Assembly: GCA_050273025.1 (NCBI GenBank)
Contig: CP158635.1
Span: 18,228,001 to 18,292,000 of the forward strand
Source: Cenococcum geophilum
Lineage: Eukaryota
Direction of reading: 5' to 3'
Length of the DNA stretch: 64,000 nt
Part shown: positions 1-64,000 of the stretch, in pieces
How positions within the stretch are numbered: position 1 is the first letter of the stretch
Layout: each line of letters begins with the position of its first letter
Program-made: the position numbers and the translations under genes
The notes under the pieces: generated by a model
Databases searched by the model: none
Told to the model about the DNA's origin: nothing
The model's input: the letters and a program-made list of their open reading frames with translations, nothing else

Positions 1-1200
1 TTTGATAAGAATTTATAGGCACTCTATAGTTGATTTTTTAGTGTTCTTATCGATTACAGTCCATAGCTTGGTCGCATTCCATTAGGTAAAAATATTACGC
101 TTATATTCTAGTCCTTTAAAGTAGTTGCGGGTGGCTTTATATAGCTTATTAAAGGGAACACTAAGGGGGTTGCTCTTAAGGTTAGTGTAGTAGTAGTTAA
201 GTGCTAGGCTGCGTAGTATAGTAGAGTAGGCTTAGCTAAACTCTTGTTTAGGAATGTCAGCCTTCTGGCAAAGGTCCGTAAAGATGGTTAGTTTAAAGTT
301 AAAATTGTCGTTTTTACTACTGTACTTAGATTTGTCGGTATAGAGCTTAGCTAGGTTAGCTAGCTCCTTACCATAGGTCTTTACTTAGGTGGCTTACGGA
401 TCTGTAACTTATAGATTTATGGCTTGTGGATATATAGCTTGCGGATATATAGCTTGCGGATATATAGCTTGCGGATCTGTGACTTAAATAATAGGGGTAA
501 TTTGGTCCGTAATTTGGTTTACAGGGGTGTTGTGGTCCGTATTTTGGGTTACGGGGGTATTATGGTCCGTAGCGTGGTCCGTAGCTTAAGAGTAGGGTAT
601 ATTTTAGCTAGTGAGGTTAATTCTAAAGCCGCTTGGGTTTATAGGGCGAATTTAGTTAAGTGGGTTAGGTATAAGGCTAGCGATCCCATTAAGTTTGGGA
701 GAAGTAAAGAGGTCTTTAGTGGCTTTAACCTGGTCTAGGATTTCCTCTTTAGTCCATTCTGTTTAGTCCTCCTCCTATATTGTGTTATATAAGGACCATA
801 TAATAGTAACTTATTTATCCTTTTTAACCCATATACCTTAATAACGTAAAAGGGTTTATAGGTTATGGATAGTAGTAGGGTTATAAGCCTTAAGAATAGC
901 TTCCGTAAAGTCCGCAAAGTCTTCCTTATATTACTCCCATAGGTCGTCGTTTAGAAGCTTATAGTATCCGTATTTAAGGATTTTGAAATTAATATAGTCG
1001 TTAACGCCGTCCGTAGACGTAAGGTTAACTCCCTAACTCCACTTCTTTTAACCTTTACTAATTTGCTTAGTTATATCTACCATATTATATAGCGTAGTAT
1101 ATCTATATAAGCCGTAGTGGGTAATAGTAGCTTATAGCGGGTGGAGGAGGTCTTATAATGGTCCGTAAAATCAATTAGCGGGTCCGTAACAGTTCAAGAG
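1..1200 (-). pseudogene. RIP-degraded gag of a fungal Ty1/Copia-like LTR retrotransposon (continues beyond window start)
   Basis: Minus strand ~370-170 reads LANLAKLYTDKSKYSSKNDNFNFKLTIFTDLCQKADIPKQEFS*AYSTILRSLALNYYYTNLK, matching the gag motif of ascomycete Copia-like elements as I recall it. An 18-bp coding repeat lies at ~390-485. Confidence 0.7.
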
Positions 1201-1526
1201 GTCTTATAGTAGTCCGTAAAGGCGATTAACGGGTCCGTAACGGTTCGTAGAAGGGTAGGGGGTCTCTGTAAGGGGTCTAAAAAGAGGTTGGGGGTATTAA
1301 GGGAGGGTGTAGTAGGAATAGGGGTTTAAGGTTTAAAGAGGTTAAGGGTAAGGGGTTCTATATAGGTCTATATTCGCGTTTATAAACTTCTAGTAAACTA
1401 TACTAAGACTTAAATAAGTATATAGAGTTAGTAATAAGTCCGTAATCCCTGACTTCTAACCTTCTAATAGGTTGTACTAGGAGTCTAAACGGGTGGTTGC
1501 TGTCGTATATATCGCTTGGGGGGAGG

Positions 1527-1795
1527 TGTTAAGTAATTGCTAATCTGTGCGCGCTTACTGATCAGTGTTCGTACTAATTTAATAGCACAAGTAAGTTGTA
1601 TCCACGGGCACGAAATACATGTAGTATCGTATGCTTGTTTAGATGGTGACTGTCAATTGTATAAAGTAGACTACGTGGTCTATATACTGATGCACCTCCC
1701 CCCTAATTAGTTAGTGCTTTATAAGTGCACTAAACGCGTACCTGGTGTACCGAACGCGTAAGCACACGGTTGGTATAATAGGTGCTATAATTATA
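1527..1795 (+). mobile_element. LTR remnant preceded by a polypurine tract (3' end of a + strand LTR element)
   Basis: PPT ggggggagg (1518-1526) directly precedes tgttaag. The sequence is less RIP-mutated than its flanks and cuts off the Plavaka ORF at ~1795. Right boundary is approximate. Confidence 0.5.
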
Positions 1796-2850
1796 CAGTA
1801 AGATATACCGGCTAGGCCAATTTATCACTATAGTATATTATTAGCTAGGTCTTATTAACTACTATAAGTATAGGAACTACTATAGCACCGCTAGGAAGCT
1901 TGCCTTATATCTTTTACCACTAATCACCGCTATATAGCTTATTATAAACATAGTGGTTTTCGGCATTATAGAGTCTCTTTAGTATATATACCAGTGCATC
2001 TTTAAAGGGTTAATGGCCAATTAGAAAGGTAATTACATTTATAATATCCTAATAAAGAATATAGTATTCCCTCTACTTAGAGCCTTTAATATTTAATTCC
2101 ACCTTACACTCTAATCGGAGCTATTATTTATCTTATATACTAAATAAAATAGCGGTAATTAGTTCTTCCTATTAATTTATAGATTGGAAGCTAAGTAGGC
2201 TATAAAGTAGGCTAAGGCGGGTGTCTTTAAGTAGTGCGTTAACGTCTCCCTTTATGCAGCGAATGCGGTACAGCTATATTAAAAAGGCGTAATTAAACTC
2301 TAAATAAAAAGGATTGTATAGTATACTTTGGCTATTATCGTATTATAATATAGTAATATCTAAAATTATCTAGCTAACTTACTACACATTATTATTAGTC
2401 TTGCATAAAATTGGTTTACCCGCCTTTATATTCTTAGTTGCTTTAAATATCTCTACTTTAAGTGATAATAATAACAATATAACGCTTTTCTAATATAGTA
2501 TACCGTACGGAGGCACTAGATAGGCATTCTACTTATATTCTACCGCCACCAAAGTATACTTGTTAGTATCCGTGTTTATACCGTCTAGTTATAATCGCGC
2601 GTTATCTAACCAGTAAAAGTAGTGGAATTAATCGCAAATTATAAGCAGTCGGGCCGTAATAAATATGCGAGTATTATATCTCTCTTTGCGTGCTTTTTTG
2701 TAGACGTGTTAGTGGCTAGGTAGCTGCCTTTTATAGCACCGTAGGTGTTAGTAAAGGCCGCCGTAACTCTTAGGGGTATAAGAACACCATAGACAGCTCT
2801 GCTGTATTATTGCTAATTATATATTAAACAATATAGTATTGTTTTTAGGC
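1796..2850 (-). pseudogene. Plavaka-type (CACTA-related) transposase, RIP-degraded, 3' truncated
   Basis: Minus strand ~1940-1796 reads LYSGD*W*KI*GKLPSGAIVVPILIVVNKT*LIIYYSDKLA*PVYLT, which restores to LHSGDWWW.MQ.KLP.GATVVP..I..DKTQL....GDKLAWPVYLT, the Plavaka core motif. Upstream it reads LEFNYAFLI*LYRIRCIKGDVNALLKD. Confidence 0.8.
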
Positions 2851-2964
2851 GTAAAAAGTGTGTGTTATAGTACTAACGGTTAATTGCCGGTATTTGATCT
2901 ATATGGGTGGCTTAGCTTTATAGCTGCTAAGAGTATACCTCTTATTTTTTCGCCAGAACTAGTT

Positions 2965-3272
2965 ACGCTAAAGCACAAGTATAACTAGCCTAACACCGAG
3001 TTTAAGGACTTAAAAGAGTCCAAGGCAGCCAAAATAGACGCTAAAGCGCAAGTATAACCAGCTTAACACTAAGTTTAAGAACTTAAAAGAGTCTAAGGCA
3101 GCTAAACTGGATGCTAAAGCACAAGTATAACTAGCTTAACACCGAGTTTAAGGACTTAAAAGAGCCCAAGGCAGCCAGAATGGACGCTAAAGCGCAAGTA
3201 TAACTAGCTTAACACTAAGCTTAACACCGAGTTTAAGGACTTAAAGAGTCTAAAGTAGCAGAACTGGACACT
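2965..3272. repeat. Tandem array of four 73-bp units
   Basis: The unit start a(c/t)gctaaagc recurs at 2965, 3038, 3111 and 3184. Confidence 0.9.
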
Positions 3273-3549
3273 GTGAACTAAAGACTCAATAGTACCCAAA
3301 AAACCTTTATCCGTCTAAACAACAATATATAGTATTCTTAGGCAATGGCTATAGGACCACAGTAACAGCGAAGATATTATTTACCACTAATGTTACAGAG
3401 CCCGACGATATTAGCTATCTAGACCTACAAATTCCATTATTTCTATATAAGCCATGACAAGAAAAAAAGGGAAGATTAAGGGTAGTACTAGTTGAGTTAA
3501 GATAACTAAATAAGTTAGTACTTAGAACTATAATATCTAGTCTTAGGTA

Positions 3550-4100
3550 TATAGAGTTCTAACTAATGTTTAACTTAAGCTGCCGCCCAAAAGTCTTATA
3601 TTTATCATTAGGGTAACGCTAGAGGGCTAGGCCGGATAATAGGTATCGGCAACAATATAGATGATTTAAAGCCCGCAAAGTAACTAAATAAAAAGCCTAT
3701 ATCTCGCAGGCTAACTACTTATCTTTAATAGCTTTTAAAAGTTTATTTCTAAAATTCCTTTTAATATCTCCGGTTTCCTATTAAACAGATATGTTAGCAT
3801 AAGCCTATATACTACTAGGGTGCGGAGAGCTAAAATATAGTTAGAGCTCTTTAAATGATTTGCCAGAAAAGAATAGGTTATTTAGGTCAGCCTATAGATC
3901 GGCCAGCTTAACCTTAATATCCTACCCTAGCTTACGAAGATTAGGGCTATCTCTACCCAGTATACTACCGTCGATCTGCGTATTAGTATCTCCCTTATTC
4001 GTAGCAGCTAAAGAGGCTTTAGGTATCTGGTCTCTAGAAGGCATTATAATACGGCTTTTAAAAGAGCCCGCTCCGAGCTAGGGTACCAGACGCTATATTA
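3550..4100 (-). pseudogene. RIP-degraded hypothetical protein
   Basis: Protein-like minus frame (MPSRDQIPKASLAATNKGDTNTQIDGSILGRDSPNLRKLG*DIKVKLADL*ADLNNLFF...) with RIP-type stops. No family recognised. Confidence 0.35.
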
Positions 4101-4556
4101 TAGGTAAAGCTTATAATAGTTGTATAAGGCGGGATACATTTCTAGGCAGTATGCGTTTAGAGAAATTGAGGCTGAGGTAAGCTTAATGTAGCTATATTTT
4201 TGAAGACAAAGAGGCTATAGTATTGGTTTAGGCGGCTATAAAAGTTTAAAAAATTAAGCGAACAATAGCAGGAAATAGAAGAAAAAGGCGCGTAAATAAG
4301 AGTACGGTGTTATAGGGCTAGAGTGACAACAGCTATATTATGGATGGCTCGACATATAATTCAGATTACGGGACCTATATATAAATAAGTCTAGCGAATA
4401 TCTTTAATATAAAGCGTAGTAGCTATAAGTAGGATCTAGGATACTAGTTTTAGGTTGTCTATATAGTAGATATAACAGCTTATCTAAAAAAAAGTTGCTT
4501 TATCGGTGACATAGCTTAAAAATAGGTTATACTTTAGGTAAAAGGGTATCCTAAAG

Positions 4557-4875
4557 CCTTATCTTACACTTATAGGATAAAATACCATATTATATTTTAC
4601 TTTGTTTTATACAATCTTAGACTTTTTATAATATCTTAAATCATCCCCTTACCTCTCTCTATTATACACTTTACCTTATCTTACACTTATAGAATAAAAT
4701 ACTATATTATATTTCACTTTTTTTTTTATATAATCTTGGACCTTTTATAATGTCTTAAATCATCCCCCTACCTCTCTCTACTATACATTTTACCTTACCT
4801 TATGCTCGTAAAATAAAATACCATATTATATTTCACTTTTTCGTACAATCTTAGACATTTTTAATGTCTTAGATT
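4557..4875. repeat. About 2.7 tandem copies of a ~118-bp unit
   Basis: ccttatcttacacttatag.ataaaatac.atattatattt...aatctt.gac...aaatcatcccc repeats from ~4557, ~4674 and ~4793. Confidence 0.8.
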
Positions 4876-5399
4876 GTCCTAAACTTATTCCTTAACCTCT
4901 CTAAAGCTGCTTTACTAACTAGTTATAATATAAAGAATAGAATCATCAGCTCTCTTATTATCATATATCTAGTCTAGTTGCTTAAGTATACCTACTAGGG
5001 CATCCATTATCCTATCTATAACTCTTTAGCTTCCTATATAATATATATAACAACTAATGTTCTAAGGCTTCTACTATAGATTACACTTATTTTTATATGC
5101 CTTGCTATTTATATCTTGCAATTTTATTTACTTAATTAGCAGCGCAAATCTTATATCTCATCTCGCCACGCACCTTTCGTTCCGTTTCTCACTCTAAGTC
5201 TTATATTTTATTCTACTGCCCATATTAAAGCTTATATCTCATCCTACTTCTTATATTAAGACTCGCATTCTATTCTATTTCTTACATCGCTCTTATATTA
5301 CTTTATTAGAATCCGCTATTATCTTAAGTTAATACCATTAGCACACCTTCTTATTATAACTGTCAGGATTATCTTATTAGATTATTACTAATTATCTAA

Positions 5400-8300
5400 T
5401 ATATTATCCGCTCTACTGTCTTTATAAGTTACTCCATACTATTCTATATAAAACTTTTACCCGCTTATAAATATATAGGGTCCTTAACTATAATAGCGGC
5501 GCTATACCTAAACTCTAGTTAGTACTTAACCACTATAACTAATAAGAACTTATTGTAAATAAGTGGTCCAAAGCTGCAGTAAGGACTCGCGATTAACGAA
5601 AAAACATATAAAGAAATCCTCTAATACTATGCTAGCGAAATCAACAAAGCGTCTAGCGGTAGGTTGCTAGTGTCCGGGCCTATACAAAATAGAGTTAAGC
5701 GCATAGTCTTTAACCTTCTCGATACTAAGTATAGGCACGTATTTAAGAGATCCGATCTACTATTAAAGTTTAAAGCTTTCACTGTCGCCGCTAAAAAATC
5801 TATATAGCGACACATAACGACCAACAGACGTAGAGGCGTAGAGGTTACGATAGCTAATATTATTTTAAAGTATGGCGGCTTATCTTCCAGAGAGCAGTCT
5901 ATTAACTTATCTAGATTAAGGGCAGCCTCTAAGGCTGCCTAGGTGCTTAGTAGTCTATCTATTAAAGTCCTATAATAGCTAAATACCACACCTACACTAT
6001 TCTATAAAATAAGTTTTGCTATATATAGTTACCTAGACAAAACGCCATTAAATGGGGCCCCCATTCCATACGGATTTATATTAAAAACTAAGCATAAGTA
6101 TCTATTATTCGATTCTCCAGAGAAAGTTAATATATATTACTATGGATATAATAAGCTATAGGCCGTAATAAGTATAAACTTCTCGGCGAATAAATACAGG
6201 GATGGCTGGGCTATAGTAGATCTGACTACCAGTATACTAATTCTCAACTATATAAACCTAGCATTTACGGTGCTTTCTATAAAGAAGGCTAGACTTAATA
6301 TAATTATAATTAGGGTTAAAAATCCCAATCAGATTATAAAGCGTAAAAGACTTTATAACTTATATAAGATTATATAATATTATATAGAGTTATCTAACGT
6401 ACGTTTATAGGTATAAGATTTAATAAGAGTACTTTTAAGTCCAACTCTAACCCTAATATTACACAACTAGTGCCGACTAGGAGAAGAATAGGCATACCTA
6501 CCCTAGGTTAAAGTAGTCACAAACAGTTAATTCTAGAGTCCACGCCACCTATATCTAAGCAGTTAAATCCAAAGCCTACGTTAACCCTAAAGTCCACGCC
6601 ACCTATACCTACTAGTGCATCATCAGCCGTATAGCCGGCTATAATCAAAACTGCTTATAGCTAAACCCATAGTAGTAAAGACTAGCCCCTACTAGATAAA
6701 TTAGAGCTCTTAAAAGGCGTAGATCTAGATAAAATATAAATATTTAAGATAATGCCATAGGATAAGATAAAAGGATAGTGTAATAAATAGCCAAAGTCTA
6801 ATCGCGAAATGTTTATCGATATATTATTTAAGGATATAAATAATAACCCTAACCTAATTTATATTAGGGAAATTAATCTTAACCGCATATAGGAGCGCCG
6901 CCACTTTAATGCCTTAATTAACCCTATTTTAACTAACAAGGAACTAGAAGATAAGCATAAGGATAGAATTAAGGAGGTTAATTAGGAAGTTAATTACCTA
7001 AAGGACGTGCGAGAAGCATATATTAACCTAATATTATAGGTAAAGGCGCTATAGTTCCTCTCGTTTTTATTAACTATTTATAACACTCTTTAAGATATAA
7101 CCTTCTACTTATATAGCATAAAAAAGGGTAAAGCTATATAGACATATTACCTGCTTAGTATTACCTATACTCTTTATAATTATACAGCCCTAGGTGGGAC
7201 CTTTCTTATAGATATAATAGGTTTAGGCAAGACACTTTAAATGCTCTTAATCTAGTATACCAGTGTGTTAATAACCAAAATTAACCTTAACTGGCTTAAT
7301 TAGAAAAATTAAGAAGGTAGAGATAAAAGTCTCTACCTTACCCTTAGTATAGACGAACACCCGCAGCCGCCTAACGCCCAATGCCTAAGTTAAATAGATG
7401 GCATGCCACAGTGCTATTATATTAAGAGAAGTATCACTAGAAATTTTCTTTACCGGCTAGTAGGACCAACTATATATATTACTAGACAGAATCTACTACC
7501 CTAAGCGGTTAAAGATATTAAATTATGGTTTAAAACCTTAGAACTAAATAATTATATTCCTAAAGGTAAACTATAAGTTCGCGTACGCCATTTGGCTTTT
7601 ATTAGGTCTAGTATAAAGAAGTATAATTTTATAGATAAAGATAAAGATATTCTTAAACCTATAAAATATAAAAGAGAAGGTAAGAAGATCTAGTAGATAA
7701 TAGACCTAAGATCGGCTTCGTATCTTATAATTATAACATTATAAACTTAGGTAATAACCTAGACCGCTTAGGAACAGTATAAAACTATTTTTAATCTCTA
7801 TAGAGACAGTAGTCCTCGTTATATTATTAGTAGGATTCTTACCAACAAGTTCTATATAGATAGGTTAGAGACAGGTTATCTAATAAAAATAGCCAAATAA
7901 GTGTATAATAATTAAGCAGTATTTCCTTACTTTTAACGCCCGGGCCTGTCTTACAAGGATAGCAATGGTAAAATAGCCTACTATACCTCTTAACCTTTAG
8001 TAGTGTTTACTTCCGGTATACTAACTAGCAAAGGTTTTATAAGTCTAATTCCCGCCTTAGAAATTTTTAGGGCCCTTAATTAGGCGGATTCCACAAATAC
8101 AAAATTAATTAATAATCGTAATATTAAAGCATTAATTACTTTTCTCTTCTAAATAAGGTTATTATGGGCTTTAAAAAATACTCCTCTTTAATTATAAAGA
8201 TCTTAATTATACGCAGGATAGGGGAAAACCGATGGTTTAATAGGAGGGTAATTAATAAGCTACCACTGGTCGTCTACTAAGACTACTATATAATAAACGA

Positions 8301-10468: not shown

Positions 10469-11339
10469 TCTAGAAAGTTTAAATTTAGTTTAGATTAATA
10501 TTACTCCGGCTACTAACTACTTTAACACCTATTAAGTAATCCAGCTTACTAACTCTCGTTCTTATATACATAAATAGTTCCTATTAAAGTATATCCTCTC
10601 TACTAATAGATTATATATATTTGCTATCTTTATTATTCCAAAAGCCTAATTAATACGTAAGAGGATCCTCCCGTTAGTAGTGGTTTTTAAGATCTTACTA
10701 TCCTATATAAAAACTTTTTACTACTAATAACTACTAGCTCCCACCCGCATACTATATAATATCTATATAAAATCCCTAACGGCGAAGAAAAGCGTACCCT
10801 AATTATTCTATTTAATCTACCTCCTACCTTTTTCCATAGGTGTAAGATATTAAATTAACCTATAATATAATACCAACTGGAATAATTGGCAAACCTAGCT
10901 CCGTTAGATAAATATACTTAATAATAAGAACTAAAACCCCGTTACTACTAAGCCTATTATACTGCAAAATAAAAGGGCTATTATTAATATTAGTACGTTT
11001 TAAACGCACTTTATTAGCCGGCACTAATAGATATAGGTTAATAGGCTACCTACTACTTTATATTTAACGGTTTTAAGAACAATAGGGTAAAACATACTGT
11101 TATTTATTATACTCTTACCGACTATAATAATTAATTTATTATAGGCTAGAAACTTAGCCTTAAACAAGTAAAAGGCAGACTTTTAGGATATATTAGACAT
11201 ATTATAGACAAAACCTTTATATAGCCTACCCGCATTAGAACACCTTAATAGTAGTACTATACCGTTAGATTTCGCTATTAGGCATTAAAGTAACCGAGCA
11301 ACCTTAAGTCTTTCCCTTGTTGCCCGACCCTAAGCCTTA

Positions 11340-11665: not shown

Positions 11666-12849
11666 CGCCAAGCCTCCTAGCTAGATTGGGCAATTAGACG
11701 TCGCGAATTCAACTCCTAGGCGTGGCGGGTTTGATTCCTACTTATCGCGCATTAAAAATATCAAAAAAGAAGGTCATTTCCTATTAAATTAGGCGTTAGT
11801 AAGGCTCCAAATTAAGCTTATATTTTCGTACGTATCTCGCAACGCCTAAAGTCATACATTTAACGAAATCTCAGCACTATATACTAAGCATGTCGGCTCT
11901 TCTACGCTGATTTTTAATTATATTGGGCTAGCTCTAAATTAAAGCAAGAGGTAGAACATACCATACTACTACGCTATAAGGACTTTGGAATGTAATTTTA
12001 TAAATTTAACTAAATTATAACCCCTTCCTAAACCTTACAATCAAACCAGATCCTTAAGGAGAGATCCCTACATTAAATCTTAGGGAACGTTTAGTGGCGA
12101 CTTTAGATTAAATCTAAAGGCCCTAGAATATATCCGATCTAAAGCTTAAATCTAATTCTAATATAATCATTTAGTTAATCTGGCAACTTTCTAATCTAAA
12201 AGCTCCTCTAGATTAGTAAGCTATACTATATATAGAATCTAAACTAAGGTCTTAGTATTAGTTTAAATTAGGAGCTTAAAGCTTATCTAAAGCCTTATAG
12301 AAGGATCGACTTAATTTTAGATTTCATATTTTAGTAAGTAGTTGATCTACTATAGTCCAAAATCTTAGTCGTTAGAAATTTAGGGTGTCTCTATCACTAC
12401 AGTGGCAGAGGTACCTTAAGTTTAACACCACGCTAAGTATTATAACTTTCCTGCAGTAACCAAGCAATCCTAAATTAAAGTAATTGTAAAACTTACCATA
12501 CCACTACCTACAAAGGCCCTTAGTTATAGTCTTATAAATTTAATTAAAATATAAATACCTTCCTAAATCTCACAATTAAATATTTTTACGTGCAGCACTA
12601 TGCCAAGGATTATAATACAGATTGCTTAAACATAGCTTTACTACAATATAACGGCTCTACGCCAATTAATTAATCTACGGCTCTAAAATCTAGATCTATA
12701 ACACTAAAAACAAGCTCTAAGCTACTAATTTTATATTAACAGAATAAAACTTAGCAAGAGATTCGGGCAGTAAAATTACTGCTAAGAGTTACTGCCCGGA
12801 TCCTGGCCGATAAATACCCATAACCATAATCTTAGTAAATGGTAAAAGT

Positions 12850-59333: not shown

Positions 59334-60027
59334 CAGTAATCTTGTTCCTTTTACTACGTAGTAACTCTAACTACTTCTATAGTTTTTAACGTAATAACCC
59401 TATTTTCCGCAATTTATATAAGCTCCTTCCCTAAACCATTTTTCTTGTTATAAAGTCCGCCTAAATGTCTTTTGCTACTAAGATCCCTAGTTTAGCCTCT
59501 GCTCCTTAGGTCTTTAATTACTTAATCCTTACCCTTTAGGTTTCTATAATTTCTTATTCTATTTTCTAAATTCTTTAGTACCGCTTAGGTCCATTAGCTC
59601 TGCGCTATACTATAGTTTTTAACTTAGCTTTAGTTATTGTATACTCTATGCCTTATATAACTGTAGAACTCTATCTTAGCCCCTTTTAGCCTATTCCCTT
59701 TAGTAGATCTAATTATTAATCTTAATTACTTAATCTATTAATTCCCTTAGGGTGTCCGCATCTTCTATTAGAATAATTACGTCCTAGACTTTAGCCTTAA
59801 GTCCCTGTTTATACTATGCTATAAGCGCCTTATTATTCTACTTAACTTATATAGCTAGCGTTTAGAACTGCGTTATATACTTAATTACTAAAGTTTATTA
59901 CGTAATATTTTAGAGTTTTCTTTCCGCTATAGTTACCGCCTCCAGATCTCCAAATATCTATATAAGTTACTTTATAAACCCTTCCTAGCTTATAAATATA
60001 AATTATACTTCTTAATTAGTAGTTATT

Positions 60028-61051
60028 AGTAGTAATTCTTTGATTAACGTCTGATACGGATCCTACTGGCCCACGCAGACTACTCCGTTACAGGGGGGAA
60101 AACTTGTGTATTTACAGGAAGAAAACCCCTGCAGTTGTTGGGGGAGGAAAAACCCTATGAGCAGCCTTAGTAGGATGAAAAACCCCGATTTGCTATGCTT
60201 GCACGTAGCAGCGGCCCTACGGGCCTACTGCACGTCCTCCTCCTTAGATGTTTTGAACTCCTTGGGAACCACTGCTTTCTTCTCCAGCTTATCTAAAGCT
60301 AGGGTTCACTACGTCCTAGCTAGGCCTTGCCGATCGATTGCCGTGTACTTATACTTATCTCTCCCATATCTTGACTATCTTGTCCGTCCCCTATATGCTA
60401 TCTCTTGTTGACTATTACCATATACGCCTTGCCTCCCCCCCCCTAGAGCCATTGAAGGCGTAAGGGGGATTCATCCATTCTAACTACCGTAATACTGATA
60501 AGCGAGCGGGATATATTATTGGGTATCTTTTACGCCTAGGCCCCAGCTAGGCCCTTTCTAAGGGTCACCACTCCGTTGAAAGAAGATAGGGAAAACCGTG
60601 GGTTGCAATCCAGGCTGCTAGGTAGTATTTGGTAGTTGACGGCGAGTGACCGCATGCTCCGCGGGCGATTGCCCTGGGGGTTAGGAGGGGCCGTATATTT
60701 GCTCGTTCGTTCGTTCGCTCGCGATCGCTCGTTCGTTGATGTGAGGTCGTCGATGCTTTTAATTGAGGGTTTTAGGGGACATTGGATTCCATCTTGTATC
60801 CGCGAGGATCACACAGGGTTAAATAGGGGTGTAGCAGTTGTCTACTATGAAGGGGGTTACCGTTAGTAGTGGTTTTCGAGATCTCACCATCCCATGTGAA
60901 AACTTTTCACTACCCCCCACAACATTTCAACCACCACCACGACCTCCTACCCGCAGCTGTGCGACGTCTCTGCGTTGGCTCTGCTGAGTCCGAAGACCAG
61001 CAGGTTCGTAGGCCTTACCACGTATAGGTGCAGAGTCCGATTTCGAGGACC
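60028..61051 (-). mobile_element. Non-autonomous non-LTR retroposon (SINE/SIDE-like, 1024 bp)
   Basis: 11-bp TSD tagtagttatt at 60017-60027 and 61052-61062. The minus-strand 3' end ...aatcaaagaattactact resembles (TAC)n tails of fungal Tad1-type LINEs. No RT ORF; absent from Gypsy copy 1. Confidence 0.9.
60968..61051 (-). ncRNA. HDV-like self-cleaving ribozyme (predicted)
   Basis: P1 ggtcctc/aaggcct with G1.U wobble; P2 ctctgc/gcagag; P3 acc/ggt; L3 tatacgt; J1/4 ac; P4 ctgctggtc-ttcg-gactcagcag; J4/2 gccaa. It is 84 nt long and starts exactly at the TSD boundary. Confidence 0.8.
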
Positions 61052-61672
61052 TAGTAGTTATTATTCTATTTACTTATATTTTTATAAGGTAAAATTTAAA
61101 CTATTTAAGTGCCCTTTCTAATAGGAATAGTCCTGTATATACTATTTAATCTATAGGTATTAGTAGCTTTACTCCTTCTTACGTTACCTTAAAGTGCATT
61201 TATATAAGGAATTCTTTAAGCTTTAATCTTTCTCCTAAGTACCTTTCGATTAATAGTAGCTTAATCTTTACTACTCCTATCCCGTTAATCCTATTTTCTA
61301 ATATTATATTATTTTCTGTTAGCTAGTTAACTATCTCTTACAGTTATTCAACCGTTATAGGTTGCTATAAGTCAGTGTCTACTATACTAGTGTTATTACC
61401 TAACCTTAAAGTAGTTACCGCCGTCAATAGCGTTATAGTAGCTACTTTTAGTAGTATATTATTTAACCTTCTATATTTAATACCGTAACTAGGTAGTAAT
61501 TATATAACGGAACCTTATAGTAAGTACTACGATAGGCTTGTTAATAGGCTAGGTATATAGGTAATATAAACTAAAGTTAACAATATAATAATAACTAGTG
61601 GAGTAATTACCTAACAGATTAACTCTAATTATATTCTAAGAATTACTACTAAGGAGAGAACTATCTAGGTAG

Positions 61673-64000
61673 TATTAGCATTTTATTAGGGTGCTAAGAT
61701 CCTAGAGGCCTCCTAATAGGATTTTGATTTTCCTAGAGGTCCTAATTGTCCTAATAGGCTCCTAACAGGCTCCTAGTAGGATTTTAATTTTCCTAATCAT
61801 CCTAGACGTCCTAGACGTCCTAAATGTCCTAATGTCCTAAACGTCCTAAACGTCCTAAACGTCCTAGTCGTCCTAATAGGCTCTTAATAGGACCCTACTA
61901 TCCTAATACGCTTTTAATAGGAAACTAATATTTCCTAATTATCCTAATAGGCTCTTAATAGGAAACTAGTATTTCCTAATCGTCCTATTAGGTTCCTAGT
62001 AGGATACCCCCTAAAGCAACACCCTATATATACCCCTTAAGCAACACTACTAGGGCTCTATACGAGGCTTTATATATATAAAGCTCTACACGAAGCTCTA
62101 TACAAAGCTCTACACGAAACTCTATATAAAGCTCTACACAAAATTTATACGAAGCTCTATACAAGGCTTTGTATAAAGCTTTGTATAAGGCTCTACACAA
62201 AGCTTTACACAAAGCTTTACGCATAAAGGCTCTGTATAAGGCTCTACACAAGGCTCTACGCAAAGCTTTATATACGGAGGCTCTATACAAAGCTCTACAC
62301 GAGGCTCTACGCGAAGCTCTGCGTACAAAGGCTCTATACGAAGCTCCGTATAATATATATTACTATTAGGTCCCCACTATATTCCTAATAGCCCTACACG
62401 TGCCTCTGTCAAGCTACCCCCTTTATAGCTACCTTATTTTTTACCCTTCCTTATATCCTCCCTACCTTAGGAGGTACTAGAACGGCAGCTAGTAGAGAAC
62501 CGTCGCTAGAACTAGACGTCTATTGCTAGAACTATATAACCGTCACTAGAACTAGATAACCGTTGCTAGAACTAGATAACCGTCCTAAAGCTAGACGACC
62601 GTTACTAGAACTAGATAACCGTTACTAGAACCAGACAACCGTTACTAAAACTAGACAACCGTTACCAGAACTAGATAATCGTTACTAAAACTAGACGACT
62701 ATTACCAGAACCATACGACCGTTACTAGAACTAGATAACGACCTTTTAAAATAACCAGCTAGCGAATACTATAAACGATTTAATTAATTAATCGATCGAA
62801 TTAAACCAGAGCTTTAATATTGGCCTATTACCGAATCGAACTAAGGCCTCCTAGGGAGGCACCCTAGACGACTACCGTTCGAATATACAGCTAATAAATG
62901 GCCGTAGAGAACAATCTAAATCAATTAGAGCCTTTAATCGGGCCGACCCCTCCCCTAAATTAAATTAGATACTAATATAGGCAGGTAGGTAGGCAGGCAG
63001 ATAGGTAGGTAAGTAGGTAGGTAGGAGAGGACCGTCGCTAGAACTATCCCTTAACCCGTCAACTTGGGCACGCAGGTTATCGATAAGAGTCCACCAATCA
63101 GATCGGTAGGATTCGGTAGCCGTGCTTAGGAATATACAATTCGGGGAGTGGCCAAGGCTTCTGGGGGGTTTTTTTCGCCGTCTTATTTGGGGGAATCTTA
63201 TACTGAGTCTTCTAAACAGGATCTACATCAATTCTAGCGTGATTAGAAGGCATGGTGGTGGTATATTTAATGGTTTAATTCTACGCGTTGTTCTGATTCT
63301 GGTGTTCGCGCACGGGCCTTCCACTCTGCTCGCCCTAACGGGTCAAGGGATACGACCGTCGCCGTCACCAGACAATAATCGTTTAAACGACTAGCTAGTA
63401 AACACCACGATTAATTTAATCGATTGATCGAATCGAACTAGAGCCTTAATATTACCCTATTACCGAATTAAATCGAATTAGGGCCTCTTGGAGAGGCACC
63501 CTAGATAACTATTATTTAAATATATAGCCAGCAAACGCCCATAGAGAACAATTTAAATTAATATAATTAATTATAATTAAATTAAGCAGAGCCTTTAATC
63601 GGGCCGACTTCTCCCCTAAATAATAGATATAAATAGGTAGGTATAGATAAGTAGGCATAACAGGTAGGCATAGATAGGTAGGCATAGACAGGTAGGCACA
63701 AACAGGTAAGTATAAATAGGTAGGCACAGATAGGTACAGGTAGGTAGGTAGGTAGGTAGGCAGGTAGGCAGGCAAGTAGGCAGGTAGGTAAGTAGGTAGG
63801 TAGGTAGGCAGGCAGGTAGGTAGGCAAGTAGGTAGGTAGGCAGGTAGGCAAGTAGGTAGGCAGGCAGGTAGGTAGGCAGGCACTAGGCCTAGTTAGGAAA
63901 TCAGTACACAACCGGCGGATTATCGGGAATACCGCCAATTAACGATTTGGAGCCTCTGCGAAGGCTTCCCCCTTAATTAATCGCTTAACGCCCGAGCGAT
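61673..64000. mobile_element. Second copy of element X in inverted orientation, inserted in the Gypsy 5' LTR; runs off the window
   Basis: Reverse complement of ~57276-59333 with RIP-type differences. It starts tattag (restores to cattag) right after LTR sequence ctatctaggtag. Confidence 0.9.
63048..63349. mobile_element. 302-bp MITE with CCC...GGG termini and apparent 2-bp TSD (AT)
   Basis: TIRs cccttaacccgt / acgggtcaaggg. It is absent at the equivalent site in X copy 1 (~57935, gaactatacaacc on the minus strand). Confidence 0.85.

What the first reader, a model, noticed from the sequence alone, without database searches (positions are those of the whole stretch)
60028..61051. Ribozyme-headed non-coding retroposon: HDV-like ribozyme 5' end plus LINE-type (TAC)n 3' end
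Seen: a 1024-bp insert with an 11-bp TSD, a tactact tail and no RT. Its first 84 nt (minus strand, 61051-60968) give the HDV nested-pseudoknot order P1-P2-P3-L3-P3'-P1'-P4-J4/2-P2', with a G.U pair at position 1, a cUUCGg-capped P4 and a candidate catalytic C at 60978. Two defects (a P1 C-A pair and the L3/P1.1 pairing) are repaired by reversing single G>A changes; one P1 U-C mismatch remains. Known: HDV-like ribozymes process the 5' ends of R2 and other LINEs and of R2-derived SIDEs. Inference: this is a fungal SINE-like family that frees itself from read-through transcripts by self-cleavage instead of using a Pol III promoter and borrows a Tad1-like RT. I do not know whether such a family has been described.
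Basis: partly seen in the sequence, partly recalled or inferred. Interest (0 to 1): 0.9.

Follow-up and report, generated by a model that had tools for sequence, protein, structure and literature searches.

The report
Fungal retroposon headed by HDV-like ribozyme
This is one decayed copy of a very abundant, about 1-kb, non-coding jumping element of a fungus whose first 84 bases fold like a hepatitis-delta-type self-cutting RNA placed exactly at the element's first base, and whose last 55 or so bases are borrowed from a reverse-transcriptase-encoding LINE.

Summary
Window 60028-61051 (minus strand) is a 1024-nt non-coding insertion with an 11-bp target-site duplication and a TAC tail. Contigs joining the flanks without the insertion exist in two DNA runs.

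A metagenome scan gave 57 related loci.
- 41 of 47 main-family loci are full length.
- A target duplication was found for 42 of 58 copies. It abuts base 1 with no extra base in 40 of those 42. This rules out a 5'-truncated LINE.

The remaining U3xC40 mismatch in P1 is fixed in the main family. Two sister families have a perfect 7-bp P1 through compensatory changes at 3/40 and 5/38. One sister family has an unrelated body and shares only the 5' 122 nt and the 3' 50 nt or so.

A RIP-degraded LINE of about 5.5 kb (RVT_1, E 1.1e-14) shares only the 3' stem-loop and lacks the ribozyme head.

Rfam gives no ribozyme hit, and catalysis is untested. I read this as a fungal analogue of R2 SIDEs and NARTc: a new variant of a known kind. 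Confidence is about 0.65.

The parts
60028..61051 (-). Whole non-autonomous non-LTR retroposon copy: 1024 nt, non-coding, and decayed by G>A and C>T changes
   Evidence: It is 82-91% identical over its full length to 41 main-family loci. Empty-site joints are seen.
61052..61062 (.). Target-site duplication, copy next to the element's 5' end (AATAACTACTA on the minus strand)
   Evidence: script; the joint with 12 ambiguous letters
60017..60027 (.). Target-site duplication, copy next to the element's 3' end
60968..61051 (-). HDV-like double-pseudoknot module, element positions 1-84. The predicted cleavage site is 5' of G1 (61051).
   Evidence: 93.1% of cells are paired on 36 distinct sequences, against 31-45% when the partners are slid. 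The model built from it finds only family copies in 600,885 bases. Descriptor scan.
61045..61051 (-). P1 5' strand (GGUCCUC), which pairs with 61010-61016
   Evidence: The window copy has G1.U42, U3xC40 and C7xA36. The family consensus has C7-G36. Sister families have GGCCGUC/GACGGCU and GGGCCUC/GAGGCCU, both perfect.
61010..61016 (-). P1 3' strand, positions 36-42. A36 (61016) is G in most copies.
61030..61035 (-). P2 5' strand (CUCUGC), which pairs with 60968-60973
   Evidence: 95.8% of cells are paired. The 3' strand lies inside the search pattern, so its invariance is not informative.
61017..61029 (-). P3 (3 bp) with the 7-nt loop L3. Loop positions 27-28 (61025-61024) form P1.1 with positions 43-44 (61009-61008). 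A27 is G in most copies.
   Evidence: P3 is paired in 97.2% of cells. For P1.1, the U-A pair is present in 36 of 36 distinct sequences, and the other pair is G-C in 25 and G-U in 1 of 36.
60981..61003 (-). P4 hairpin, positions 49-71, with a UUCG loop in this copy
   Evidence: The stem is kept through indels on both strands in the sister families.
60974..60980 (-). J4/2 (AGCCAAC), with the candidate catalytic C74 at 60978
   Evidence: This rests on position and on a C-N-A-A motif that I recall from the HDV core. The stretch lies inside the search pattern. It is also kept in the 2 copies found only by the model.
60035..60086 (-). 3' module shared with the LINE, including the stem-loop at 60049-60080
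   Evidence: Similarity to the LINE is confined to element positions 966-1017. Alignment. The consensus fold has 11 pairs, one of them compensatory (U-A in 11 sequences, C-G in 7).
60028..60034 (-). (TAC)n-type microsatellite tail (TACTACT)

Best explanation
The insert is a decayed copy of a high-copy, roughly 1-kb, non-coding non-LTR retroposon of a fungus. It is built from three parts.

(1) A 5' head of about 84-120 nt folds as an HDV-like nested double pseudoknot. Its predicted self-cleavage site lies immediately 5' of the element's first base.

(2) A body of 700-900 nt is free to vary and is even unrelated between families.

(3) A 3' stem-loop of 55 or so nt plus a trinucleotide-repeat tail is shared with an APE/RT LINE.

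Proposed mechanism, with what is shown and what is inferred:
- Inferred: the element is transcribed by Pol II, either from a neighbouring promoter or from a promoter in or behind its head.
- Inferred from fold, covariation and exact 5' ends: the head cuts itself off the upstream RNA, so that every RNA starts at G1.
- Shown: the 3' end is shared with the LINE, and copies carry target-site duplications and tails. Inferred: the LINE's proteins recognise the shared 3' stem-loop and tail in trans and copy the RNA by target-primed reverse transcription, which would give full-length copies with 10-20-bp target duplications.

The window copy itself carries G>A changes that break one P1 pair and one P1.1 pair, so it is probably a dead copy.
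For: Family and mobility.
- The scan gave 57 loci.
- 41 of 47 main-family loci align over positions 1 to 1012 or beyond. Five more are cut by contig ends.
- A TSD was found for 42 of 58 copies. It abuts G1 with 0 extra bases in 40 of those 42 and is 10-20 bp long.
- Empty-site joints are present.
- 8754, 4689 and 1312 contigs of three runs lie on the stretch.
- RNA reads are strongly one-stranded, for example 3772 against 71 in one bin.

Ribozyme fold.
- 93.1% of 967 cells are paired, against 31-45% when partners are slid by 1-3 columns.
- Differences between family consensus sequences outside P4 fall at 3/40, 5/38 and 7/36 (all P1 partners) and at 12 and 32 (J1/2 and the last base of L3).
- No family-level differences fall in the P2 5' strand, P3, the L3 core, P1.1 or J1/4.
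- At 5/38 the pair is C-G in 29 distinct sequences and G-C in 6. At 3/40 it is C-G in 6, G-C in 1 and unpaired in 29.
- All three P1 versions start at the first base of their element.
- The L046 family shares only positions 1-122 (84%) and the last 50 or so nt (77%) with the window family.
- The descriptor gives 41 hits at known starts and 22 elsewhere in about 1.2 Mb.

Not a Pol III SINE.
- No tRNA or small-RNA match was found.
- Six runs of 4 or more T lie on the sense strand, the first at position 150.

Partner LINE.
- RVT_1 matches at E 1.1e-14.
- Homologues have an APE + RT + RNase H architecture.
- Five copies share one 5' end.
- Similarity to the elements is limited to the last 54-111 nt.
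- The 3' stem has a compensatory pair.
Against: - No Rfam ribozyme family matches at E up to 10. This holds for the window copy and for the perfect-P1 L046 copy.
- The main family, which includes the window copy, has a fixed U3xC40 mismatch in P1 in 48 of 48 copies. P1 mismatches have been linked to absent in vitro cleavage in other HDV-like ribozymes (PMC3774820, section 12).
- J1/2 is a 9-nt, apparently unstructured linker. Webb et al. 2016 (PMC4908430, Results, passages read) found slow cleavage with unstructured spacers of 3-7 nt.
- Positions 62-84 (P4 3' strand, J4/2 with the candidate catalytic C, P2 3' strand) were the search pattern. Their invariance says nothing, and covariation in P2 and P4 could not be tested.
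- The covariation comes from a few events among paralogous families, probably of one or two species.
- The MFE fold of the window copy is not unusual (z = -0.91).
- In the one raw RNA run, molecule ends pile up at 61039 (208 molecules beside a depth of 637), which is element position 13, not at 61051. I cannot tell whether this is a real end or alignment clipping of reads from sister families.
- Catalysis and a 5'-OH end have not been shown.
Confidence: 0.65

Rival explanations
1. The conserved 5' head is not a ribozyme. It is an internal Pol II promoter or start-site determinant, or a structured RNA bound by the LINE proteins or needed for RNA stability. Transcription starting at G1 gives the exact 5' ends, and the HDV-like pairing is partly coincidental.
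For: - Exact 5' ends would follow equally from a fixed start site.
- The main family amplified to high copy number despite the P1 mismatch.
- Rfam gives no ribozyme hit.
- RNA ends pile up at position 13 rather than position 1.
- In L1Tc, the same 77 nt act as both promoter and ribozyme (PMC3383444, abstract in the search listing). A promoter role is therefore plausible and need not exclude cleavage.
Against: - A DNA promoter does not predict compensatory changes that keep a 7-bp RNA helix between positions 1-7 and 36-42.
- It does not predict that all the other family-level changes fall in J1/2, the last L3 base and distal P4.
- It does not predict the full pseudoknot order with P1.1 and a C-N-A-A J4/2.
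- The competing 4-bp helix of the MFE fold (2-5 with 14-17) is not kept in the sister families.
Confidence: 0.2
2. The head is a real HDV-like ribozyme in the two sister families with a perfect P1. It is crippled in the main family, to which the window copy belongs, by the G3>U change. That family's 5' ends are made another way, or by very slow cleavage.
For: - U3xC40 is present in 48 of 48 main copies, while L046 (GGGCCUC) and the GGCCGUC family pair perfectly.
- The literature links P1 mismatches with lost in vitro activity, with partial rescue by repairing the pair (PMC3774820, section 12).
Against: - The main family is the most abundant, with 47 of 57 loci.
- Its copies begin at G1 as exactly as the others do.
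- Apart from position 3 its core is identical to that of L046.
- A register with U3 bulged gives six Watson-Crick pairs (G1-C41, G2-C40, C4-G39 to C7-G36). This is read from the sequence and has not been tested.
Confidence: 0.12
3. The insert is a 5'-truncated or internally deleted copy of the LINE, that is, a dead LINE fragment or a SIDE in the strict sense.
For: It shares the 3' 54 or so nt and the type of tail with the LINE.
Against: - No similarity to the LINE exists outside the last 54-111 nt, even in a sensitive blastn.
- The LINE's own 5' end, the same in 5 copies, is a different sequence.
- Copies share one exact 5' end, whereas LINE copies in the same loci are truncated at many points.
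Confidence: 0.02
4. The insert is a classical Pol III SINE derived from a tRNA, 5S, 7SL or snRNA.
For: It is non-autonomous, short relative to the LINE, and shares the LINE's 3' end.
Against: - No tRNA was found.
- No Rfam small-RNA match appears at E up to 10.
- The element is 1 kb long and has six T4-5 runs on the sense strand from position 150 on. By textbook knowledge these would terminate Pol III.
Confidence: 0.01

Closest known systems
R2 SIDEs (short internally deleted elements) of Drosophila
   Same: They are non-coding, non-autonomous non-LTR elements. They consist of an HDV-like ribozyme at the 5' end, which cuts the RNA out of a co-transcript, plus sequences identical to the 3' UTR that the autonomous element's protein recognises (PMC3774820, Introduction, passage read; PMC3414825, abstract in the search listing).
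   Different: SIDEs take both ends from R2 by internal deletion and insert site-specifically in 28S rDNA. Here the head is absent from the only partner LINE found. Insertions are dispersed with variable TSDs. The host is a fungus, and at least three families with unrelated or diverged bodies share the head.
NARTc / L1Tc with the Pr77-L1TcRz head in trypanosomatids
   Same: A non-autonomous retroposon carries an HDV-like ribozyme in its first 77 nt, cleaving at +1, and is mobilised by a LINE (PMC3185411, Results and Discussion passages read). This dual promoter/ribozyme head is a model for how the fungal head might also promote transcription (PMC3383444, abstract).
   Different: NARTc shares the head at close to 100% identity with its LINE, L1Tc (PMC3185411). 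Here the LINE has a different 5' end. L1TcRz has a single-pair P1.1 according to that paper, while this head has two pairs. The hosts are unrelated.
[quoted passage not shown]
   Same: The topology is the same (P1-P2-P3-P1'-P1.1-P4-P2'), cleavage falls at the base of P1, and P4 and J1/2 are variable (PMC3774820, section 16; PMC4908430).
   Different: No match to Rfam's models of these ribozymes. The main family has a mismatch at P1 position 3. The ribozyme sits on a non-coding element.
Ribozyme-bearing SINE-like elements with other ribozyme classes (Schistosoma twister variants in non-LTR retrotransposition; the hammerhead in Sm-alpha)
   Same: A small self-cleaving ribozyme is associated with non-LTR or SINE-like retroposition (PMC8501958, abstract in the search listing; Sm-alpha is recalled, not looked up).
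   Different: The ribozyme class and the hosts are different.

Membership tests
HDV-like self-cleaving ribozymes | Nested double-pseudoknot order P1-P2-P3-L3-P3'-P1'-P1.1-P4-J4/2-P2' within about 70-90 nt | tested here: met
   All six helices can be written on alignment A1. 93.1% of 967 cells are paired, against 31-45% when partners are slid.
HDV-like self-cleaving ribozymes | P1 of 6-7 bp that begins at the cleavage site, usually with a G.U first pair (PMC3774820, sections 16 and 18; PMC4908430) | tested here: inconclusive
   Met in the two sister families, which have 7 of 7 pairs with G1.U. The main family has 6 of 7 because of U3xC40, in 48 of 48 copies. The window copy has 5 of 7.
HDV-like self-cleaving ribozymes | P1.1 of 1-2 pairs between L3 and the bases just 3' of P1 | tested here: met
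   U28-A43 is present in 36 of 36 distinct sequences. G27-C44 is G-C in 25 and G-U in 1 of 36. The window copy has A27, which breaks this pair.
HDV-like self-cleaving ribozymes | Catalytic C in J4/2, and the conserved U...G bases in L3 | tested here: inconclusive
   C74 sits in AGCCAAC (C-N-A-A), and L3 reads U-G-U-A-C-G-U, with U at its first position and CG at its fifth and sixth. The comparison with HDV C75 and U20/G25 is recalled, not computed. J4/2 lies inside the search pattern. It is kept in the 2 copies found only by the model.
HDV-like self-cleaving ribozymes | Covariation that supports the helices | tested here: met
   P1 shows changes on both sides at 5/38 (6 distinct sequences), 3/40 (1) and 7/36 (3). 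These represent few events. P2 and P4 could not be tested on their 3' strands because of how the loci were found.
HDV-like self-cleaving ribozymes | Match to curated covariance models (Rfam HDV-type families) | tested here: not met
   No ribozyme family matches at E up to 10 on window 59500-61600 or on L046 150-1200. These models are narrow and do not model pseudoknots; that remark is my own knowledge.
HDV-like self-cleaving ribozymes | Mg2+-dependent self-scission that leaves a 5'-OH on the downstream product | not testable with these tools
   This needs an in vitro transcription and cleavage assay and 5'-OH-specific end mapping.
Non-autonomous non-LTR retroposon mobilised in trans by a LINE | Target-site duplications, a 3' repeat tail, no coding capacity, and a 3' end shared with an RT-encoding LINE | tested here: met
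SINE in the strict sense | A head derived from a Pol III-transcribed small RNA, with an internal A/B-box promoter | tested here: not met
   No tRNA or small-RNA match. The element is 1 kb long with six T4-5 runs.
SIDE (internally deleted derivative of its autonomous element) | Both the 5' and the 3' end identical to the autonomous element | tested here: not met
   Only the 3' 54-111 nt match the LINE. The LINE's 5' end is different. Only about 600 kb of sequence was available, so another LINE that carries the head cannot be excluded.

The most novel reading that the evidence does not exclude
In this fungus an HDV-like ribozyme acts as a portable 'head cassette'. It replaces the Pol III promoter of classical SINEs and is not inherited from the partner LINE. 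Joined to any body that ends in the LINE's 3' stem-loop, it has founded several high-copy, highly transcribed non-autonomous retroposon families. If so, ribozyme-headed retroposons are a general SINE-equivalent design in fungi, not just deletion products of ribozyme-bearing LINEs.
Probability: 0.4. Interest if true: 0.7.

Novelty: new variant of a known kind. Interest (0 to 1): 0.6.

Why it matters
HDV-like ribozymes are known at the heads of animal and trypanosomatid non-LTR elements and of their deletion derivatives. My searches of the held papers found no fungal retroposon of this design. [quoted passage not shown]

If the head cleaves, three things follow. It gives a simple answer to how a 1-kb non-coding element without a Pol III promoter keeps an exact 5' end while scattered through a repeat-rich genome. 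It adds a natural set of P1, P4 and J1/2 variants, including a high-copy variant with a P1 mismatch, for ribozyme structure-function work. It also gives annotators of fungal genomes a defined family that is abundant in soil, root and fungal metatranscriptomes.

Tried and rejected
- Whole genome: none is held. Copies therefore had to come from one metagenome scan and one lay of reads.
- Window self-search: this found only the one copy, plus a 54-nt 85% match at 10671-10724.
- Rfam at E up to 10: nothing relevant on the window region, on the L046 element or on the LINE 5' end.
- Earlier findings of this scan: none by place, by sequence or by words.
- Viral-contig scan with a head motif: 0 matches.
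- Searching the full metagenome contigs behind five loci with the model was not possible, because those records are not held.
- Long ORFs in the loci: none belong to a LINE. The LINE copies have 36-39% G+C and no open frames, so RT was detected only by reading stops as X.
- Relaxed HDV-type scan of five LINE 5' ends: only a weak candidate starting at +4 in 3 of 5 copies. It has many G.U pairs and no C-N-A-A junction, so I rejected it.
- A helix 2-5/14-17 from the MFE fold is not kept in the sister families, so I rejected it.
- RNA 5'-end mapping: the pile-up at 61039 cannot be interpreted. 87% of what was laid from the RNA run runs on into unlike sequence, which points to other family members.
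- Papers not held: PMC3256349, PMC3308841 and PMC3159031. The published HDV-like descriptor and the fungal example could therefore not be compared.
Full report
**1. What is at the coordinates**

On the minus strand the stretch 61051->60028 is a 1024-nt block of normal G+C content (46-53%). It sits in DNA of 29-36% G+C.
- The 11-mer AATAACTACTA flanks the block on both sides, at 61062-61052 and at 60027-60017.
- The block ends in TTACTACT.
- It holds no frame longer than 118 aa between stops and no tRNA.
- Rfam finds no family match of any meaning at E up to 10.
- Within the window it is a single copy. The only other similarity is 54 nt at 10671-10724.
- No whole genome is held for this window.

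**2. It is an insertion and a member of a very large family**

One sequencing-run search listed 20 runs from 13 studies that hold 31-49% of the sampled words. They include DNA runs of two coded organisms and metatranscriptomes labelled fungus, root and soil.

I laid four runs on 59900-61200 at 85% likeness.
- 8754 contigs (X1), 4689 contigs (X7) and 1312 contigs (X13) lie on the stretch, as do 13,038 raw RNA reads (X21).
- Depth collapses at both ends of the element.
- Three contigs (1 in X1, 2 in X7) join 60016 to 61052. They skip 1035 bases (1024 + 11) with 12 ambiguous letters, which is the empty target site.
- RNA reads are strongly one-stranded, for example 3772 against 71 in the bin 60868-60911. 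With the usual library chemistry this is the sense strand of the element.
- 87% of what was laid from the RNA run runs on into unlike sequence, so most transcripts come from other family members.

**3. Copies from metagenome contigs**

A scan with the 23 bases at element positions 62-84 returned 57 loci.
- 47 belong to the same family as the window copy.
- 7 belong to a sister family (L014, L018, L028, L029, L033, L038, L051).
- 1 (L046) belongs to a third family.
- 2 (L001, L030) are truncated or rearranged at the 5' end.
- Five loci (L003, L013, L019, L049, L055) are one and the same insertion.

Completeness of the 47 main-family loci:
- 41 align from position 1 to position 1012 or beyond, at 82-91% identity.
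- 5 are cut by the end of their contig.
- 1 aligns only to position 984.

Upstream flanks are unrelated, and every copy starts at the same base.

A script found a target duplication of 10-20 bp in 42 of 58 copies.
- In 40 of those 42 it abuts base 1 with no extra base.
- Of the other 16 copies, 11 lack a 3' end on the contig or did not match the script's 3' motif. The script found no duplication in the remaining 5, two of which are the same insertion as loci where it did.

Tails are (TAC)n in the main family, and (AAT)n or GAAT/AAT in the sister families.

This rules out a randomly 5'-truncated LINE. It shows a discrete non-autonomous retroposon made by target-primed reverse transcription.

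**4. The head**

Positions 1-84 can be written as follows:
- P1: 1-7 with 36-42
- J1/2: 8-16
- P2: 17-22 with 79-84
- P3: 23-25 with 33-35
- L3: 26-32
- P1.1: 27-28 with 43-44
- P4: 49-57 with 62-71
- J4/2: 72-78, AGCCAAC

In the window copy P1 has two non-pairs (U3xC40 and C7xA36) and P1.1 has one (A27xC44). The family majority has G36 and G27. This is seen in the laid reads at plus-strand 61016 and 61025 and in the loci.

On alignment A1 (56 sequences, 36 distinct), 93.1% of 967 cells form standard pairs. When the 3' partners are slid by 1-3 columns the figure is 31-45%.

The main family keeps U3xC40 in 48 of 48 copies. The sister family reads GGCCGUC with GACGGCU, and L046 reads GGGCCUC with GAGGCCU. 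Both give seven pairs with G1.U.

| P1 pair | Standard pairs among 36 distinct sequences |
|---|---|
| 5/38 | C-G in 29, G-C in 6 |
| 3/40 | C-G in 6, G-C in 1, unpaired in 29 |
| 7/36 | C-G in 25, U-G in 4, U-A in 3, unpaired in 4 |

For 7/36, L014 and L018 share U7-A36, which may be a third family-level compensation or may be RIP.

I compared the family consensus sequences by eye.
- Outside P4, every difference lies in one of these P1 pairs, at position 12 (J1/2) or at position 32 (the last base of L3).
- No difference lies in the P2 5' strand, P3, the L3 core, the P1.1 partners or J1/4.
- P4 changes by indels on both strands that keep a stem.

A covariance model built from A1 finds the 58 known heads, two more sister-family copies (L006 878-966 minus, L052 7938-8026 plus) and nothing else convincing in 600,885 bases.

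My own descriptor requires:
- P1 with at most 1 mismatch
- P3 with 3 Watson-Crick pairs
- P1.1 with 2 pairs
- P2 with 6 pairs
- C-N-A-A before P2'

It hits 41 known element starts and 22 other sites in about 1.2 Mb of both strands. Four of those 22 lie within 30 nt upstream of a known start and reuse its downstream parts.

**5. Limits of the fold evidence**
- Positions 62-84 were the search pattern. The P4 3' strand, J4/2 with the candidate catalytic C74 (60978) and the P2 3' strand are invariant by construction. Only the two model-only copies speak to them, and both keep AGCCAAC and P2'.
- The covariation rests on a few events among paralogous families.
- Rfam's HDV-type models do not match, even for the perfect-P1 L046 head.
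- The MFE fold of the window copy is ordinary (z = -0.91).
- Eickbush and Eickbush report that P1 mismatches are uncommon in HDV-like ribozymes and go with absent in vitro cleavage, partly rescued by repairing the pair. They also report that about a quarter of R2 ribozymes have 1-2 mismatches at the top of P1 (PMC3774820, sections 12 and 16, read).
- A 9-nt unstructured J1/2 would be expected to slow cleavage (PMC4908430, Results passages).
- In the main family a register with U3 bulged gives six Watson-Crick pairs but loses the G.U pair. I read this from the sequence and did not test it.
- RNA molecule ends pile up at 61039, element position 13 (208 molecules beside a depth of 637). Sister-family heads differ from the window copy at positions 3, 5, 8 and 12, so clipped alignments could produce this.

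**6. Modular build**

The L046 element is about 855 nt long and has a TSD and an (AAT)n tail. It shares with the window family only positions 1-122 (84%) and the last 50 or so nt (77%). The 700-nt body gives no match even with sensitive settings.

The GGCCGUC family is related over its whole length at 70-87% identity.

So the head and the tail module are what is kept.

**7. The partner LINE**

Nine further places in the loci carry only the element's last 50-100 nt. They are the 3' ends of a longer repeat whose copies are truncated at various points. The rest of the evidence on this repeat:
- Five copies share one 5' end, which begins GAGCTCTTGCTGCACC and has unrelated flanks, so the full length is about 5.5 kb.
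- The copies have 36-39% G+C and no open frames, consistent with RIP.
- Read with stops as X, one frame matches RVT_1 at E 1.1e-14.
- The best database relatives have endonuclease (PF03372/PF14529) + RVT_1 + RNase H domains. This is an APE-type LINE. The clade was not determined.
- Similarity to the non-autonomous elements is confined to the last 54-111 nt.
- The shared part folds into a stem-loop of 11 pairs. One pair is U-A in the 11 non-autonomous sequences and C-G in the 7 LINE sequences.
- The LINE tail is (AAT)n. No LINE with a (TAC)n tail was seen in the 600 kb available.
- The LINE 5' end has no head module. The model does not hit it, and a relaxed scan gives only a weak candidate at +4 in 3 of 5 copies.

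**8. Mechanism proposed**

Shown:
- a discrete family with exact 5' ends and TSDs
- repeat tails and a 3' stem-loop shared with an RT LINE
- sense-strand transcripts
- a conserved head whose only family-level changes preserve an HDV-like fold

Inferred:
- The head cleaves 5' of G1 and so trims any upstream RNA.
- The LINE's proteins act in trans on the 3' stem-loop.
- Transcription is by Pol II. The six T4-5 runs from position 150 onward argue against Pol III.

Whether transcription comes from read-through or from a promoter function of the head itself, as in L1Tc Pr77, is open.

**9. Comparison with what is known**

The closest systems are two.
- R2 SIDEs consist of a ribozyme plus a 3' UTR, both taken from R2, and insert in rDNA (PMC3774820, Introduction; PMC3414825, abstract).
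- NARTc carries the first 77 nt of L1Tc at close to 100% identity, and these are active as a ribozyme (PMC3185411, passages).

This family differs in four ways:
- the host is a fungus
- the insertions are dispersed
- the head was not found on the partner LINE
- the head tops bodies that are unrelated to each other

It is not a SINE in the strict sense, and it is not a SIDE of the LINE that was found.

Four literature searches found no fungal retroposon of this design. The review that lists a fungal HDV-like ribozyme is not held, and Repbase could not be consulted. Prior description therefore cannot be excluded.

**10. Verdict**

| Reading | Confidence |
|---|---|
| Non-autonomous retroposon | near certain |
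| Ribozyme head that defines the 5' end | about 0.65 |
| Head is a promoter or other structured element | about 0.2 |
| Ribozyme crippled in the main family | about 0.12 |

Novelty: a new variant of a known kind. Interest: 0.6.

Noticed in passing
L040:6128-11669 (minus strand of the locus; oriented 355-5895). Also L006, L016, L017, L023, L031, L056.: A RIP-degraded LINE of about 5.5 kb with RVT_1 and an (AAT)n tail. Five copies share the 5' end GAGCTCTTGCTGCACC. Many other copies are 5'-truncated. In L040 its 3' end lies only about 60 nt upstream of a main-family element.
   Followed up: partly
window 59900-60027 and 61052-61200: The AT-rich flanks of the element are themselves a very high-copy repeat, with summed contig depth up to about 280,000 in X7. 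Copies of it without the insertion exist. The element therefore landed in an older, RIP-like degraded repeat.
   Followed up: no
window 60376-60478, 60641-60770 and 60865-60956: RNA depth is very uneven along the element. Hundreds to thousands of reads leave the window sequence at fixed points, for example 2086 at 60478, 2248 at 60865 and 1214 at 60770. The most expressed relatives therefore share only blocks of the body with this copy.
   Followed up: no
window 61039: 208 RNA molecules end here, at element position 13, beside a depth of 637. Few reads reach 61051. This is either a real 5' end or clipping of reads from sister families.
   Followed up: no
window 10671-10724: A 54-nt, 85% match to element positions 139-192 on the same strand as the element. 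It is probably a fragment of a related family.
   Followed up: no
window 12388-12625: An 85% match to the repeat that lies just upstream of the LINE in L040 (oriented 108-345). The same repeat occurs in L053 and L001. It is another dispersed repeat family.
   Followed up: no
window 62024-62390: Overlapping open frames on both strands read as repeated LYKALY/RALYKA-type units. This suggests a tandem minisatellite rather than a gene.
   Followed up: no
L032 (oriented about 6945-6960) and L031/L050 3' ends: One main-family copy carries a (CT)n tail instead of (TAC)n. Two copies carry (TTA)n, probably (TAC)n after C>T changes.
   Followed up: no
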